32,000 bases of DNA. Source: an uncultured bacterium. Its GTDB lineage: Bacteria; Margulisbacteria; WOR-1; CAVSGV01. The stretch covers positions 1 through 32,000 of the forward strand of contig OY969425.1 in NCBI GenBank assembly GCA_963699255.1. Reading direction: 5' to 3'. Position numbers and translations under genes: made by a program. This document shows positions 19,657 to 21,231 of the stretch, in pieces. The notes below the pieces were generated by a model. The model saw only the letters and a program-made list of their open reading frames with translations, ran no database searches and was not told the DNA's origin. Every line of letters begins with the position of its first letter. The first letter of the stretch is position 1.

Positions 19657-21231
19657 TTGGATTACGCGGTCAGCGTCATTAAGAACCAATTTGACAATAA
19701 AACACTGAAGGCCGGAGACAGCATTGACCTGATGAAATACCTTAAATTGCGCGGCAATTCTATGGTCCTTTGCGGAGCGCAATGGGGCGATGAAGGAAAG
19801 GGAAGAATGGCTTACCTCATGGCTTCCTTATTGGGAGCCAAAGCCGTGGTGAGATTCAACGGCGGGCCGAACGCGGGGAAAGTGGTGGAGGCTGAAAATG
19901 GAAGGGTCTTTGAATTGTGCATGCTGCCTGCCGGCGCTCTCAACCCGGACGTGGAAATATACATGGCTCAGGGAACGTACATCAACCTCAAGTATCTTCT
20001 AAAAGAGATTGACGATCTAGAGGCAAACAAAATATCCACCAGGAGGAGAGTGTTCATTGATGACAATTGCAGTTTGGTCCTTCCGTACTACGAAGAATTA
20101 AGCCGGGCAAAAAATATGGAGCGTTCAAAGGCCATATCTTTTAATGCAGGAATGGGAGAAGGAAGCACCGGCATGGGAATGGGCGGGGCGGTGGAAAGTA
20201 ATGATATGCGCCGGGGCATTAAAGTCCATGATCTGTTCGGCGATCCCAAGCAATTACTCTCCAAGATAACTAAAGATTTGATTTTGCAAGAATATAAGAT
20301 CAGGGGATTGCTATTGATAAATAATGATAGCTGGCGTTTTCCTGAAAATTACGCAAAGAACCTTTGTGATGACCTGTTGAAAATGGCGGGAGAGATCAAG
20401 CATATGAGGGCGAATGTAGGCCGAAAGATAGAAAGAACGATTCTGGCCGGCGGGAACATTGTTTTTGAAGGCGTCCAGGCGGCGCTTCTGGATAATGCCT
20501 GGGGCACATATCCAATTAATACAACATCCACCAAAACAACACCAAATAGCATTTATGATGGTTTGAACCTTGATTCAAAATATATGCTGACAAAAGTGGG
20601 TATCGTCAAAAGTTATACTGCCGTAAGAGGGAAGACCCCGCTTCCTACCGAATTAACCGGGGCAGAAGGTGATAAATTAAGTGAAGCGGGAAATGAATAT
20701 GAGGTCAGTTACAAGATAGATCCAGAAGGCACCTTAATAACGGTTTATAATCCCGACGGGAAAACGATAGCTTATGATAAAAGCAAGCGTATCGCTGTGG
20801 GGTGGCAGGATGCCCTGGTTCTTGCAGAGTGCGCAAAGACAGGATTCACGCACTTCGCGCTCACAAAACTGGATGCTCTGGACGGCTTCGATGAAATAAA
20901 GATCGCGACAGCGTACAAATACGAAGGCGATCAGGAATTAAACCCTAGTATTTATGAGGTCGAAGAACACGACGAGGCAACTTTCATCCGATCATATGTC
21001 AAAGACCCGAAAGTACTTAAACACTGCACGCCGATCTATGAGACACTCCCCGGGTGGGCGTCCGAACTTAAAAAAAGAGGGCTTGCATCAATTTCGGAGA
21101 TAAAAAAGTTTGAAGATCTTCCTGCCGCGGCGCAGAACTATGTGAAACGAATAGAAGAGATTCTGGGGCGTCCGATCGTATTTGTCTCTGTCGGCCCCAA
21201 AAAGGACCAATATATTGAAAGAAAATACTAG
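19657..21231 (+). CDS. Divergent adenylosuccinate-synthetase (PurA) superfamily ligase, 524 aa
   Basis: Retained PurA blocks: GAQWGDEGKG (P-loop), RFNGGPNAGK, GSTGMGMGGA..RRGIKVHDL, FEGVQAALLDNAWGTYPINTTS, GWQDA, LTKLDALDG, YETLPGW, AQNYVKRIEEILG, SVGP. The track start is TTG at 19657, giving about 35 aa ahead of the P-loop. Internal ATGs at aa 26 and 36 are alternatives, so the start is uncertain. Confidence 0.85.
   Translation: MDYAVSVIKNQFDNKTLKAGDSIDLMKYLKLRGNSMVLCGAQWGDEGKGRMAYLMASLLGAKAVVRFNGGPNAGKVVEAENGRVFELCMLPAGALNPDVEIYMAQGTYINLKYLLKEIDDLEANKISTRRRVFIDDNCSLVLPYYEELSRAKNMERSKAISFNAGMGEGSTGMGMGGAVESNDMRRGIKVHDLFGDPKQLLSKITKDLILQEYKIRGLLLINNDSWRFPENYAKNLCDDLLKMAGEIKHMRANVGRKIERTILAGGNIVFEGVQAALLDNAWGTYPINTTSTKTTPNSIYDGLNLDSKYMLTKVGIVKSYTAVRGKTPLPTELTGAEGDKLSEAGNEYEVSYKIDPEGTLITVYNPDGKTIAYDKSKRIAVGWQDALVLAECAKTGFTHFALTKLDALDGFDEIKIATAYKYEGDQELNPSIYEVEEHDEATFIRSYVKDPKVLKHCTPIYETLPGWASELKKRGLASISEIKKFEDLPAAAQNYVKRIEEILGRPIVFVSVGPKKDQYIERKY

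What the first reader, a model, noticed from the sequence alone, without database searches (positions are those of the whole stretch)
19657..21231. PurA homolog with intact GTP site but substituted catalytic histidines and an interrupted aspartate-binding loop
The P-loop GDEGKG, the guanine-specificity TKLD, SVGP, LPGW and the C-terminal NYVKRIEE blocks are all retained, so the fold and the NTP site look functional. Several catalytic segments differ (E. coli numbering from memory). The canonical GGHNAGHT reads GGPNAGKV, so His41, the general acid, becomes Lys and His37 becomes Pro. TTGRGIGP reads STGMGMGG. The GNEFGATTGRRRRTGW segment, whose Thr/Arg residues hold L-aspartate, reads GNEY + a ~27-aa insertion (EVSYKIDPEGTLITVYNPDGKTIAYD, nt ~20698-20790) + KSKRIAVGW. 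There is also a possible ~35-aa N-terminal extension. This pattern suggests a ligase that still makes a 6-phosphoryl purine intermediate but joins a nucleophile other than aspartate, or acts on a base other than IMP.
Basis: partly seen in the sequence, partly recalled or inferred. Interest (0 to 1): 0.75.

Follow-up and report, generated by a model that had tools for sequence, protein, structure and literature searches.

The report
Divergent PurA paralog, aspartate pocket rebuilt
This gene encodes a very rare, fast-evolving relative of the purine enzyme adenylosuccinate synthetase that keeps its GTP and nucleotide-phosphate sites, has lost the catalytic histidine and the aspartate pocket, and sits in a strain-variable island beside nucleotide kinases and methyltransferases, so it probably makes something other than adenylosuccinate, though no activity has been shown.

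Summary
Alignments confirm GGHNAGHT->GGPNAGKV (His41->Lys), TTGRGIGP->STGMGMGG (Arg131->Met), and a 28-aa insertion (nt 20701-20784) replacing the GATTGR aspartate loop, with Arg305/Arg306->Ile/Ala. The P-loop, Asp13, Asn38, Thr129, Arg143, Gln224, Thr239, TKLD and SVGP are kept.

Three corrections. His37 varies in ordinary PurA, so His37->Pro means nothing. The gene starts at ATG 19443, not 19657. It has a conserved ~105-aa N-terminal domain and is broken in this assembly by a 1-nt frameshift in a T6 run (19596-19601).

The deviant motifs are conserved in the only close relatives found among ~15 billion proteins (P0001, P0241, P0243). These form a 100%-bootstrap clade. The host is an uncultivated Margulisbacteria-like bacterium. 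The gene lies in a hypervariable island next to leuCDB, always with an NDK + guanylate-kinase + HD-like fusion and a MidA-like methyltransferase, and here also a TGS1-like N-methyltransferase.

The best reading is a GTP-dependent 6-oxopurine-nucleotide ligase with a non-aspartate acceptor, part of a modified-purine-nucleotide pathway (confidence ~0.45). The main rival is a non-catalytic GTP-binding pseudoenzyme, because the outlier P0247 lacks Asp13 and His41. It is not PurZ. Whether a canonical purA coexists could not be tested.

The parts
19430..19436 (+). Shine-Dalgarno-like AGGGGAG, 6 nt upstream of the true start ATG 19443
   Evidence: Sequence read. No comparable site lies at a proper distance before TTG 19657.
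19443..19598 (+). First 52 codons of the gene (frame 0): start of the conserved ~105-aa N-terminal extension domain
   Evidence: tblastn of P0001 residues 1-56 gives 54% identity. The repaired protein aligns end to end with P0001, P0241 and P0243.
19593..19604 (+). A3T6C3 homopolymer run where the reading frame shifts by +1. Removing one T restores a 595-codon ORF.
   Evidence: Logan contigs of run ERR10755942 break exactly here: L174 ends at 19582 and L012 starts at 19596.
19600..21231 (+). Rest of the gene (frame 1): end of the N-terminal domain plus the PurA-fold catalytic domain.
   Evidence: Pfam PF00709 E 1.3e-92. AF2 model pLDDT 82.7, pTM 0.84. Foldseek TM 0.85-0.90 to solved PurA structures.
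19786..19803 (+). P-loop GDEGKG (Gly12-Gly17), including Asp13 and Lys16, retained
19861..19884 (+). Switch segment GGPNAGKV: Asn38 and Gly40 kept, His41->Lys, Thr42->Val
   Evidence: His41 is 100% conserved in 256 canonical PurAs and is Lys in all 4 core subfamily members.
20128..20187 (+). ~10-aa subfamily insertion followed by STGMGMGG: Thr129 kept, Thr128->Ser, Arg131->Met, Pro135->Gly
20209..20214 (+). Arg-Arg equivalent to Arg143/Arg144. In PurA, Arg143 reaches the IMP 5'-phosphate of the partner subunit.
   Evidence: The role of Arg143 comes from established knowledge of E. coli AdSS.
20467..20541 (+). EGVQAALLD ... PINTTSTKTT: Gln224 and Thr239 retained, Asp231/His232 replaced
20701..20784 (+). 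28-aa insertion replacing the GATTGR L-aspartate loop (res 298-303), predicted as beta-hairpins. The conserved core is E-[YF]-E-V-x-Y ... Y-[DN]-K-x-K.
   Evidence: A shorter version is present in P0241 and P0247.
20785..20805 (+). KRIAVGW in place of RRRRTGW: Arg305->Ile, Arg306->Ala
20863..20874 (+). TKLD guanine-specificity motif (Lys331, Asp333), retained
20935..20991 (+). ~19-aa C-terminal-domain insertion specific to the subfamily (also in P0246)
21187..21198 (+). SVGP (Ser414-Pro417) guanine-binding segment, retained
14107..17121 (+). Conserved neighbour, 1004 aa: a fusion of an NDK-like domain (NRIHCS, His kept), a guanylate-kinase-like domain (GAPGSGKT, GNYYGIS) and an HD-like C-terminal region (H..HDIGK..H..H..D)
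   Evidence: Pfam NDK E 2e-5 and Guanylate_kin E 2e-5. PDB guanylate kinase E 3e-8. Motifs are conserved in 3 lineages. The HD assignment rests on the motif only. The gene lies upstream of the PurA-like gene in the window, L001 and L004.
17172..18605 (+). Conserved neighbour, 477 aa: MidA/NDUFAF7-like SAM methyltransferase candidate (motif I ELGAGSGD)
   Evidence: Weak Pfam Methyltransf_28 hits: E 0.017 for the window copy and 7e-5 for the L004 copy. An ortholog lies upstream of the PurA-like gene in all three lineages, duplicated and directly adjacent in L004.
18653..19396 (+). Neighbour, 247 aa: TGS1-like (cap guanine-N2) methyltransferase, with the SPPW motif reading DPDW
   Evidence: Pfam Methyltransf_15 E 3.5e-9. 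Human TGS1 structures 3egi/3gdh E 2e-10 over residues 44-224. Present in L001 (70% identity) but not in L004.

Best explanation
The feature is a real protein-coding gene, 19443-21231, about 595 codons, interrupted in this assembly by a 1-nt indel in a T6 run. It encodes a member of a tiny, undescribed branch of the adenylosuccinate synthetase (PurA) family in uncultivated Margulisbacteria-like bacteria.

Shown:
- It has the long-type PurA fold.
- It keeps the GTP site: P-loop, TKLD and SVGP.
- It keeps the four ligands of a nucleoside 5'-phosphate: Asn38, Thr129, Thr239 and Arg143 from the partner subunit.
- It keeps Asp13 and Gln224.
- In every core member His41 is replaced by Lys. The L-aspartate pocket is rebuilt: Arg131, Thr301, Arg303, Arg305 and Arg306 are lost, and a 20-28-aa hairpin is inserted.
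- A conserved ~105-aa N-terminal domain has been added.

Inferred: the protein still binds GTP and a 6-oxopurine nucleotide (IMP- or GMP-like) as a dimer. It transfers the GTP gamma-phosphate to O6, with Lys75 taking over the transition-state role of His41. The 6-phosphoryl group is then displaced by an amine other than L-aspartate, giving an N6-substituted (2-amino)adenine nucleotide.

Inferred from context: it works in a pathway with its conserved neighbours. These are an NDK + guanylate-kinase + HD-like fusion, which would take an NMP to an NTP or hydrolyse nucleotides, and one or two SAM methyltransferase-like proteins. One of these is TGS1-like; TGS1 methylates the exocyclic amine of free guanine nucleotides. 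The pathway lies inside a strain-variable, glycan-type accessory island next to leuCDB.
For: - Family and fold.
- Selective remodelling rather than decay: of 66 positions that are >=95% conserved in 256 canonical PurAs, 44 are unchanged in all three core members. Seven are switched to one shared new residue (H41K, T128S, S241T, V273R, R303, R305I, R306A). Most of the 15 that vary also lie in the His41 switch segment (A39, T42), in the Thr128 loop segment that carries Arg131 (P135, Y137), or at the aspartate loop (G294, T301), though some do not (e.g. D21, H110, R419).
- The deviant motifs and the insertion are conserved in P0001 (58% identity), P0241 (43%) and P0243.
- The core trio is a 100/100 bootstrap clade on a long branch.
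- Accessory status: only about 5 distinct sequences were found in an exhaustive HMMER scan of 1.84 billion representatives, and each 90% cluster has 1-2 members. None turned up in the pattern scans of the GTDB species genomes or in phage or plasmid records. The single metagenome scan found only one member, P0241.
- Close relatives with 87-93% identical LeuC carry different genes in the 10 kb visible next to leuC.
- Island proteins are 50-70% identical between lineages whose LeuC is 88% identical.
- Conserved linkage with the NDK-GK(-HD) fusion and the 477-aa methyltransferase-like gene in all three lineages where context is visible, plus the TGS1-like methyltransferase in two.
- From memory, not tested here: the homologous amidoligases dethiobiotin synthetase and CTP synthase use a Lys at the structurally equivalent place.
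Against: - No activity data exist.
- His41 is invariant in canonical enzymes, and its loss may abolish phosphotransfer.
- P0247 sits upstream of a gene 73% identical to the neighbour of P0241, yet it is only 29% identical to P0241. It has Asp13->Gln, Gly40->Cys, His41->Tyr and Thr129->Cys. Catalysis is therefore not conserved across the wider group.
- AF2 confidence is low for the 120-131-type loop and the Gln224-Thr239 segment. No ligand-bound geometry could be examined.
- The acceptor amine is unknown. Two conserved Lys residues before IAVGW could still bind a carboxylate.
- The window copy is frameshifted and could be inactive.
- Several neighbours have only weak or partial enzyme signatures, and the HD domain is assigned by motif alone.
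Confidence: 0.45

Rival explanations
1. Non-catalytic pseudoenzyme. The protein keeps GTP (and perhaps nucleotide) binding but no longer ligates anything. It would act as a guanine-nucleotide sensor, regulator or scaffold for the island's large proteins, docking through its N-terminal domain.
For: - The catalytic His41 is lost in every member, and Asp13 as well in P0247. TKLD, SVGP and the G-x-E-G-K-G backbone persist in all.
- Evolution is very fast: 29-58% identity where neighbours are 50-73% identical.
- Many island proteins carry only degenerate enzyme-like domains.
Against: - In the core clade Asp13, Lys16, Asn38, Thr129, Arg143, Gln224 and Thr239 are all invariant. These residues matter for substrate binding and chemistry, not only for GTP binding.
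- The His41 and aspartate-loop replacements are conserved in their new form rather than drifting.
- Lys is a plausible functional substitute for His41 (from memory of DTBS and CTP synthase).
Confidence: 0.25
2. It is still an adenylosuccinate synthetase (IMP + L-Asp + GTP), either the lineage's housekeeping PurA or an island-dedicated extra copy, with unusual residues doing the usual jobs.
For: - Best matches are PurA models and structures.
- Sources annotate P0001 as adenylosuccinate synthase.
- Two conserved Lys residues (Y-[DN]-K-x-K) precede IAVGW and could bind carboxylates.
- The presence of another purA in the genome was not shown.
Against: - It scores below all NCBIfam PurA equivalog cut-offs.
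- His41, Thr301, Arg303 and Arg305 are 97-100% conserved in canonical enzymes and are all replaced here; Arg131 (80% Arg, 14% Lys) is replaced too.
- It lies in a variable island that differs in the 10 kb seen next to leuC in close relatives.
- Only about 5 sequences exist, against dozens of LeuC relatives at >=85% identity.
- It evolves far faster than LeuC.
Confidence: 0.08
3. The window copy is a recently inactivated pseudogene, or a phase-variable OFF state. The T6 frameshift is real, and only a truncated or no product is made in this strain.
For: - Frameshift at A3T6C3.
- A second break at an A8 run between ORFs 21333-24383 and 24371-25840, and a third split near 25825, relative to the single 1775-aa gene of L001.
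- Homopolymer length changes gene structure elsewhere in the island: T9 fused in the window, T8 split in L001/L002.
- The assembly graph breaks at the site.
Against: - Both halves are otherwise open and conserved, with no further stops over 1.79 kb.
- Run ERR10755942 shows clustered indel errors of the kind I associate with long reads; the platform was not checked. A residual homopolymer error is therefore equally likely.
- Homologs in other lineages are intact.
- This rival concerns only this copy, not what the family does.
Confidence: 0.3
4. It is a PurZ-type enzyme (dGMP + L-Asp -> N6-succino-2-amino-dAMP) for 2-aminoadenine synthesis. The neighbouring guanylate kinase, NDK and HD domains would play the roles that host kinases and DatZ play in Z-genome phages.
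For: - The neighbour set (GK-like, NDK-like, HD-like) recalls the dZTP route. The parallel rests on PMC12884076 read, and on my memory of DatZ.
- PHROG 1211 hit, which pools PurA and PurZ.
Against: - NCBIfam PurZ scores 75 bits against a cut-off of 300.
- PDB PurZ matches at E 6e-7, against 1e-60 for PurA.
- TM 0.64-0.70 to PurZ, PurZ0 and DgsS, against 0.85-0.90 to PurA.
- PurZ has Ser where PurA has Asp13 (PMC12884076); here it is Asp.
- PurZ still uses aspartate, and the aspartate loop is gone here.
- There is no DpoZ or phage context.
Confidence: 0.03

Closest known systems
Bacterial/eukaryotic long-type adenylosuccinate synthetase (PurA, EC 6.3.4.4; e.g. E. coli 1ADE/1CG1, Legionella 6BS7)
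   Same: - Same fold: TM 0.85-0.90, ~30-33% identity.
- P-loop GDEGKG with Asp13 and Lys16.
- Asn38, Thr129, Thr239 and Arg143 (IMP phosphate ligands) and Gln224.
- TKLD and SVGP guanine recognition.
   Different: - His41->Lys and Thr42->Val.
- Arg131->Met/Ser/Thr and Pro135->Gly/Ser.
- RV->VR swap at 272/273.
- The GATTGR aspartate loop is replaced by a 20-28-aa hairpin, with Arg305/306->Ile/Ala.
- Three extra insertions and a ~105-aa N-terminal domain.
- Below the equivalog cut-offs.
- Accessory, island-borne and fast evolving.
PurZ / PurZ0 / DgsS (phage succino-amino-deoxyadenylate synthetase)
   Same: It is a PurA-family paralog that was recruited to make a non-standard purine nucleotide. 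Guanylate kinase, NDK and an HD hydrolase belong to that pathway's logic.
   Different: - PurZ is a short, archaeal-type protein (~340-370 aa).
- It has Ser at the Asp13 position (PMC12884076).
- It keeps aspartate as the nucleophile and is phage-borne.
- The present protein fails the PurZ model (75 vs 300 bits) and the fold comparison.
Dethiobiotin synthetase and the amidoligase domain of CTP synthase (same P-loop amidoligase chemistry)
   Same: The chemistry is the same: an NTP phosphorylates a carbonyl or carbamate oxygen, which is then displaced by an amine. From memory, these enzymes use a Lys (DTBS Lys37, CTPS Lys40) where PurA uses His41, which makes His41->Lys mechanistically plausible.
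   Different: They are only remotely related. CTP synthase 3nva appears at E 0.05, TM 0.11. The residue equivalence was not tested here.
P0246-type and P0247-type divergent PurA homologs (metagenomic singletons)
   Same: They share the C-terminal insertion (P0246), or the N-terminal domain plus an insertion in the aspartate loop (P0247).
   Different: P0246 keeps His41 and Arg131 but has TKLD->AKVN. P0247 has Asp13->Gln and His41->Tyr. Grouping with the core clade has only 23-42% bootstrap support.

Membership tests
PurA superfamily (Pfam PF00709 Adenylsucc_synt) | Significant match to the family HMM over the whole domain | tested here: met
   E 1.3e-92, 311 bits against a cut-off of 27, in two stretches split by the insertion
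PurA superfamily (Pfam PF00709 Adenylsucc_synt) | PurA three-dimensional fold | tested here: met
   AF2 model pLDDT 82.7. Foldseek E 1e-36, target TM 0.85-0.90 to 30+ PurA structures.
Canonical adenylosuccinate synthase (EC 6.3.4.4; NCBIfam TIGR00184 / NF002223 equivalogs) | Score at or above the curated equivalog cut-off | tested here: not met
   290.8 vs 402, 261.5 vs 395.55, 187.5 vs 445, 175.6 vs 700
Canonical adenylosuccinate synthase (EC 6.3.4.4; NCBIfam TIGR00184 / NF002223 equivalogs) | Catalytic base Asp13 in the GDEGKG P-loop | tested here: met
   Asp45 of the 524-aa ORF. Asp13 is 100% conserved in 256 canonical PurAs and is kept in the 4 core members.
Canonical adenylosuccinate synthase (EC 6.3.4.4; NCBIfam TIGR00184 / NF002223 equivalogs) | Catalytic acid His41 (GGxNAGHT) | tested here: not met
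   Lys75. His41 is 100% conserved in 256 canonical sequences.
Canonical adenylosuccinate synthase (EC 6.3.4.4; NCBIfam TIGR00184 / NF002223 equivalogs) | L-aspartate loop GxTTGR-x-RR (Thr300/301, Arg303, Arg305) and Arg131 | tested here: not met
   The loop is replaced by a 28-aa insertion. Arg305->Ile, Arg306->Ala, Arg131->Met.
Canonical adenylosuccinate synthase (EC 6.3.4.4; NCBIfam TIGR00184 / NF002223 equivalogs) | GTP specificity elements (T/N)KxD and S-x-G-P | tested here: met
   TKLD and SVGP are retained
Canonical adenylosuccinate synthase (EC 6.3.4.4; NCBIfam TIGR00184 / NF002223 equivalogs) | IMP 5'-phosphate ligands Asn38, Thr129, Thr239, Arg143' | tested here: met
   All four are retained in the core members
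Canonical adenylosuccinate synthase (EC 6.3.4.4; NCBIfam TIGR00184 / NF002223 equivalogs) | Formation of adenylosuccinate from IMP + L-Asp + GTP, or complementation of a purA mutant | not testable with these tools
   This needs an enzyme assay or genetics.
Canonical adenylosuccinate synthase (EC 6.3.4.4; NCBIfam TIGR00184 / NF002223 equivalogs) | Being the only purA of the genome (housekeeping role) | tested here: inconclusive
   The rest of the 1.77-Mb source contig could not be read. Indirect evidence points to an accessory gene: the neighbouring genes differ in close relatives and the gene is extremely rare.
PurZ (NCBIfam NF038379, succino-amino-deoxyadenylate synthase) | Score at or above the model cut-off | tested here: not met
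   75.2 bits vs 300
PurZ (NCBIfam NF038379, succino-amino-deoxyadenylate synthase) | Ser (or Gly) in place of PurA Asp13 | tested here: not met
   It is Asp here. The criterion comes from PMC12884076.
PurZ (NCBIfam NF038379, succino-amino-deoxyadenylate synthase) | Short archaeal-type architecture close to solved PurZ, PurZ0 and DgsS | tested here: not met
   Target TM 0.64-0.74, rmsd 6.6-10 A, 11-16% identity
PurZ (NCBIfam NF038379, succino-amino-deoxyadenylate synthase) | Phage context with DpoZ, DatZ and MazZ | tested here: not met
   The context is a bacterial chromosome (16S, leuBCD, thiDE). The neighbours give no PHROG structural or replication hits. Only an HD-like motif is present in the kinase fusion.
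Known anti-phage defence systems (PADLOC-DB 2.0) | Match of the protein or its neighbours to a defence-system model | tested here: not met
   The PurA-like protein gives no hit. The only hits are weak P-loop matches of the kinase fusion (DolB E 8e-5, PDC-S06 E 0.003).

The most novel reading that the evidence does not exclude
The PurA-like ligase, the NDK + guanylate-kinase + HD-like fusion and the TGS1-like and MidA-like methyltransferases together form a self-contained pathway. That pathway converts IMP or GMP into a non-canonical purine nucleoside triphosphate, such as an N6-substituted and/or N-methylated (2-amino)adenine nucleotide. The hypervariable island would then use it as a private nucleotide carrier for its GT5, NTP-transferase and GT2-type glycan machinery, or as an antimetabolite or signal. 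This would be a bacterial chromosomal counterpart of the phage PurZ idea, but with a new nucleophile.
Probability: 0.15. Interest if true: 0.85.

Novelty: new variant of a known kind. Interest (0 to 1): 0.6.

Why it matters
PurA chemistry activates O6 with GTP and then displaces it with an amine. So far it is known with a single nucleophile, L-aspartate, even in the phage PurZ enzymes that changed the base.

A branch that keeps the activation machinery but has systematically rebuilt the nucleophile pocket would be the first candidate for a PurA-type enzyme that makes a different N6-substituted purine nucleotide. Its fixed partnership with nucleotide kinases and N-methyltransferase-like proteins makes that directly testable with three or four recombinant proteins.

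If it is instead a pseudoenzyme, it would be a rare example of a core purine enzyme converted into a GTP-binding module of a fast-evolving accessory island in a poorly known candidate phylum.

For annotation, these genes are currently named 'adenylosuccinate synthase' by pipelines, and that name is probably wrong.

Tried and rejected
- **More family members.** The word-indexed search found only P0001. The exhaustive HMMER search added P0241, P0243, P0247 and a fragment of the window gene. Two GTDB scans returned only canonical PurA or nothing. The single metagenome scan added only P0241 again (L014). Phage and plasmid tblastn gave only ~30% canonical hits.
- **Canonical purA in the same genome.** This was not possible. 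The identical kinase fusion P0392 lies on a 1.77-Mb contig, but only a short Logan contig was returned. An exact look-up of the window's LeuC ORF failed, probably because of a different start codon.
- **Purifying selection from near-identical copies.** L001/2/3 and L004/5/6 are identical at the DNA level, so they carry no information. dN/dS between lineages was not attempted because synonymous sites are saturated at 58% aa identity.
- **Defence-system and phage readings.** PADLOC gave nothing meaningful. PHROGs gave only the generic PurA/PurZ family and a guanylate-kinase hit. Both readings were rejected.
- **Programmed -1 frameshift at the T run.** Rejected. The shift needed is +1, the TTTTTTC heptamer is in the wrong frame, and the homologs are in frame.
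- **Neighbour function by PDB sequence search.** The 900-aa and 477-aa proteins gave nothing.
- **Promoter and terminator scan.** Not above shuffled expectation.
- **Literature.** No paper on such a PurA paralog, on PurA in defence systems, or on purine synthesis in Margulisbacteria.

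
Full report
**1. The observation**

ORF 19657-21231(+) encodes 524 aa that match Pfam Adenylsucc_synt at E 1.3e-92. It stays well below every NCBIfam PurA equivalog cut-off, for example 291 vs 402 bits and 261 vs 395 bits. It scores only 75 vs 300 bits for PurZ.

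- GDEGKG, TKLD, LPGW, NYVKRIEE and SVGP are retained.
- GGHNAGHT reads GGPNAGKV.
- TTGRGIGP reads STGMGMGG.
- GNEF-GATTGR-RRRTGW reads GNEY + 28 aa (nt 20701-20784) + KRIAVGW. Coordinates were checked.

In E. coli numbering the retained residues are Asp13, Lys16, Asn38, Gly40, Thr129, Arg143, Gln224, Thr239, Lys331, Asp333 and Ser414. The changes are His41->Lys, Thr42->Val, Thr128->Ser, Arg131->Met, Pro135->Gly, Arg305->Ile and Arg306->Ala, and the 298-303 loop is replaced.

Among 256 canonical PurAs, His41 and Asp13 are 100% conserved, Arg305 99%, Arg303 98% and Thr301 97%. These are therefore not ordinary variation. His37 is only 46% His in canonical enzymes, so His37->Pro carries no weight.

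**2. The gene model needed correction**

The nearest homolog, P0001 (608 aa), has about 105 residues before the PurA domain. In the window the first 52 of these are encoded by ORF 19443-19652 in another frame. The two frames join at the A3T6C3 run 19593-19604, and deleting one T gives a 595-codon ORF that aligns end to end with the homologs. A good Shine-Dalgarno (AGGGGAG) precedes ATG 19443, and none lies at a proper distance before TTG 19657.

Whether the extra T is an assembly error or real is open.
- Contigs assembled from run ERR10755942 are 99.8-99.98% identical to the window. They carry clustered indel errors and break exactly at this run.
- A second ORF break in the window sits at an A8 run.
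- Homopolymer length does change gene structure in this island in reproducible assemblies. The NDK|GK junction is T9 (fused) in the window and T8 (split) in L001/L002.

**3. A small, conserved, separate clade**

The word-indexed search of 5.8 billion proteins found one close relative: P0001 at 58% identity, with everything else at ~33%. An exhaustive HMMER scan of 1.84 billion cluster representatives added three more sequences:
- P0241, 594 aa, 43% identical.
- P0243, partial.
- P0247, 566 aa, an outlier.

It also returned a fragment of the window gene itself. Each 90% cluster holds 1-2 sequences. The pattern scans of the 185,579 GTDB species genomes found no member. Phage and plasmid records hold none.

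All deviant motifs, the aspartate-loop insertion, two further insertions and the N-terminal domain are conserved in the window protein and P0001. P0241 has a shorter loop insertion and Leu at the variable His37 position, and P0243 agrees as far as it extends. The trio with complete sequences is monophyletic in 100/100 NJ bootstraps and sits on a long branch, with a mean distance of 1.45 to canonical PurAs against 1.0 among them.

Of 66 positions that are >=95% conserved in canonical PurA:
- 44 are unchanged in all three.
- 7 are switched to one shared new residue: H41K, T128S, S241T, V273R, R303, R305I, R306A.
- 15 vary, about half of them in or next to the His41 switch segment, the 128-137 segment and the aspartate loop.

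This is the signature of functional divergence under selection, not decay.

**4. Fold**

**5. Host and context**

The window is bacterial chromosome. It carries a complete 16S rRNA gene (44-1561), an M23 peptidase, ThiD2-ThiE, LeuB, LeuD and LeuC. From 8567 to beyond 32000 there is a one-strand run of large ORFs, many of them without Pfam matches. The best named relatives of LeuC are Candidatus Margulisiibacteriota (85%) and Saganbacteria (76%).

The island contains:
- Two tandem ~900-aa paralogs. Relatives of these hit Glyco_transf_5 / GlgA.
- A 1004-aa fusion of NDK-like, guanylate-kinase-like and HD-motif regions.
- A 477-aa MidA-like methyltransferase candidate.
- A 247-aa TGS1-like methyltransferase.
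- The PurA-like gene.
- Proteins with weak GT2 signals.
- A GH26 + TPR protein.

The same order recurs next to leuC in the P0001 lineage (L001/L002) and on the 654-kb contig of the P0241 lineage (L004), whose leuC linkage was not seen. The kinase fusion and the 477-aa gene are upstream of the PurA-like gene in all three, and the TGS1-like gene in two. Island proteins are 50-70% identical between the window and L001, while LeuC is 88% identical.

Relatives with 87-93% identical LeuC carry different gene sets in the 10 kb visible next to leuC: GT5, NTP_transferase, UDPGP, epimerase, FGE-sulfatase, Methyltransf_23 and another NDK-GK. The gene therefore sits in a hypervariable, glycan-type accessory locus. 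PADLOC gave no meaningful hit for the island proteins, and PHROGs (run on seven of them) gave only the generic PurA/PurZ family and weak kinase or P-loop hits on the kinase fusion.

**6. How it most likely works**

Shown:
- The protein has a PurA fold.
- Its GTP site is intact.
- Its nucleotide 5'-phosphate site is intact, including the trans-subunit Arg143.
- Asp13 and Gln224 are kept, so the 6-oxopurine activation residues are in place.
- The aspartate pocket is rebuilt.

Inferred: it still phosphorylates O6 of an IMP- or GMP-like nucleotide with GTP. Lys75 would replace His41; from memory, the related amidoligases DTBS and CTP synthase use Lys there. A different amine would then displace the phosphate.

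The neighbours fit a nucleotide pathway. A GK-like domain that keeps the GNYYG(T/I)S guanine-nucleotide motif, plus NDK, would raise an NMP to an NTP. TGS1 enzymes methylate the exocyclic amine of free guanine nucleotides (recalled). An HD-like region could hydrolyse nucleotides. I give this reading a confidence of 0.45.

**7. Rivals**

(a) Pseudoenzyme, 0.25. His41 is lost in all members. P0247 lies upstream of a gene 73% identical to the neighbour of P0241, yet it is only 29% identical to P0241. It has Asp13->Gln, Gly40->Cys, His41->Tyr and Thr129->Cys, while keeping TKLD, SVGP and the N-terminal domain.

(b) Still a true adenylosuccinate synthetase, 0.08. This is disfavoured by the lost aspartate ligands, the sub-threshold scores, the rarity and the variable locus, but it is not excluded. 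The presence of another purA could not be checked.

(c) The window copy is a pseudogene or a phase-OFF state, 0.3. This concerns this copy only.

(d) PurZ, 0.03. It fails the model score, the Ser-for-Asp13 criterion (PMC12884076) and the fold comparison, and it has no aspartate loop.

**8. Novelty and verdict**

No paper in the library describes such a PurA branch.

It is a new variant of a known kind: a PurA-family protein with the activation half conserved and the nucleophile half rebuilt, fixed in an accessory island with nucleotide kinases and methyltransferase-like proteins. Interest is 0.6. It would be a real surprise for purine enzymology if active, and it is directly testable. At present, however, the case rests on sequence, models and synteny, on about five sequences, and has a serious pseudoenzyme alternative.

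Noticed in passing
window 44-1561 (+): A complete bacterial 16S rRNA gene (Rfam RF00177, 1537 bits). No tRNA and no 23S rRNA were found anywhere in the 32-kb window, so the 16S appears unlinked from the rest of an rRNA operon. It lies next to the M23 peptidase, thiDE and leuBDC block. Relatives L008 and L009 have a gene-free gap of about 2 kb at the same place.
   Followed up: partly
window ~15009-15017 vs L001 ~5548-5555 / L002 ~4454-4461: A homopolymeric T tract at the NDK|guanylate-kinase junction is T9 in the window, giving one fused 1004-aa ORF. It is T8 in L001/L002, giving two overlapping ORFs of 303 and 702 aa, the second starting at an ATG just before the run. Single-base homopolymer indels therefore fuse or split genes in this island.
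   Followed up: partly
window 24372-24379 and ~25783-25876: The window's counterpart of the single 1775-aa gene of L001 is split over three frames (21333-24383, 24371-25840, 25825-26775). The first break is at an A8 run. The second has no homopolymer. Error, pseudogenisation and phase variation were not distinguished.
   Followed up: partly
window 8567-11269 and 11335-14031 (+): Two tandem paralogs of ~900 aa, 58% identical to each other and 49-52% to the single 908-aa gene of L001. L175 also has two copies. There is no Pfam hit in the window copies, but relatives in L008, L010 and L011 hit Glyco_transf_5 / GlgA. By eye, the C-terminal part looks like a left-handed beta-helix of sugar-nucleotide pyrophosphorylases.
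   Followed up: partly
L008, L009, L010/L011 (locus next to leuC in relatives): The position next to leuCDB is a hypervariable hotspot. Relatives with 87-93% identical LeuC carry different sets there: GT5, NTP_transferase, UDPGP, UDP-GlcNAc 2-epimerase, FGE-sulfatase, Methyltransf_23 and NDK+GK genes. This resembles the variable surface-glycan loci of other bacteria.
   Followed up: partly
window 16000-17121 (C-terminal third of the 1004-aa protein): An H..HD(IGK)..H..H..D pattern is conserved in three lineages, which suggests an HD-type phosphohydrolase domain fused to the NDK-like and GK-like domains. No Pfam HD model reached E 0.01.
   Followed up: partly
window 25825-26772 and L004 5247-6062: Weak, sub-threshold hits to 'effector-associated domains' EAD11 (E 0.016) and EAD9 (E 0.003), adaptor domains described in NTP-dependent conflict systems. 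These are possibly chance matches.
   Followed up: no
window ~30104-32000 (+): Another large ORF (>=635 aa) starts near 30104 and runs off the end of the window, so the island continues beyond 32 kb.
   Followed up: no
L012 1124-1133 and 3373-3375 vs window 20719-20730 and 22971-22973: The Logan contig of run ERR10755942 differs from the window only by clustered substitutions and deletions at ...GATCCAGAAGGC... and ...GAAGGCGCC... . These look like systematic long-read errors, possibly at methylated motifs, and they produce a spurious split of the PurA-like gene in that contig (P0242).
   Followed up: partly
L007 (P0247) vs L004 (P0241): In two lineages whose downstream 1130-aa genes are 73% identical, the PurA-like genes are only 29% identical. 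This implies allele replacement or extreme diversification at this one gene.
   Followed up: partly
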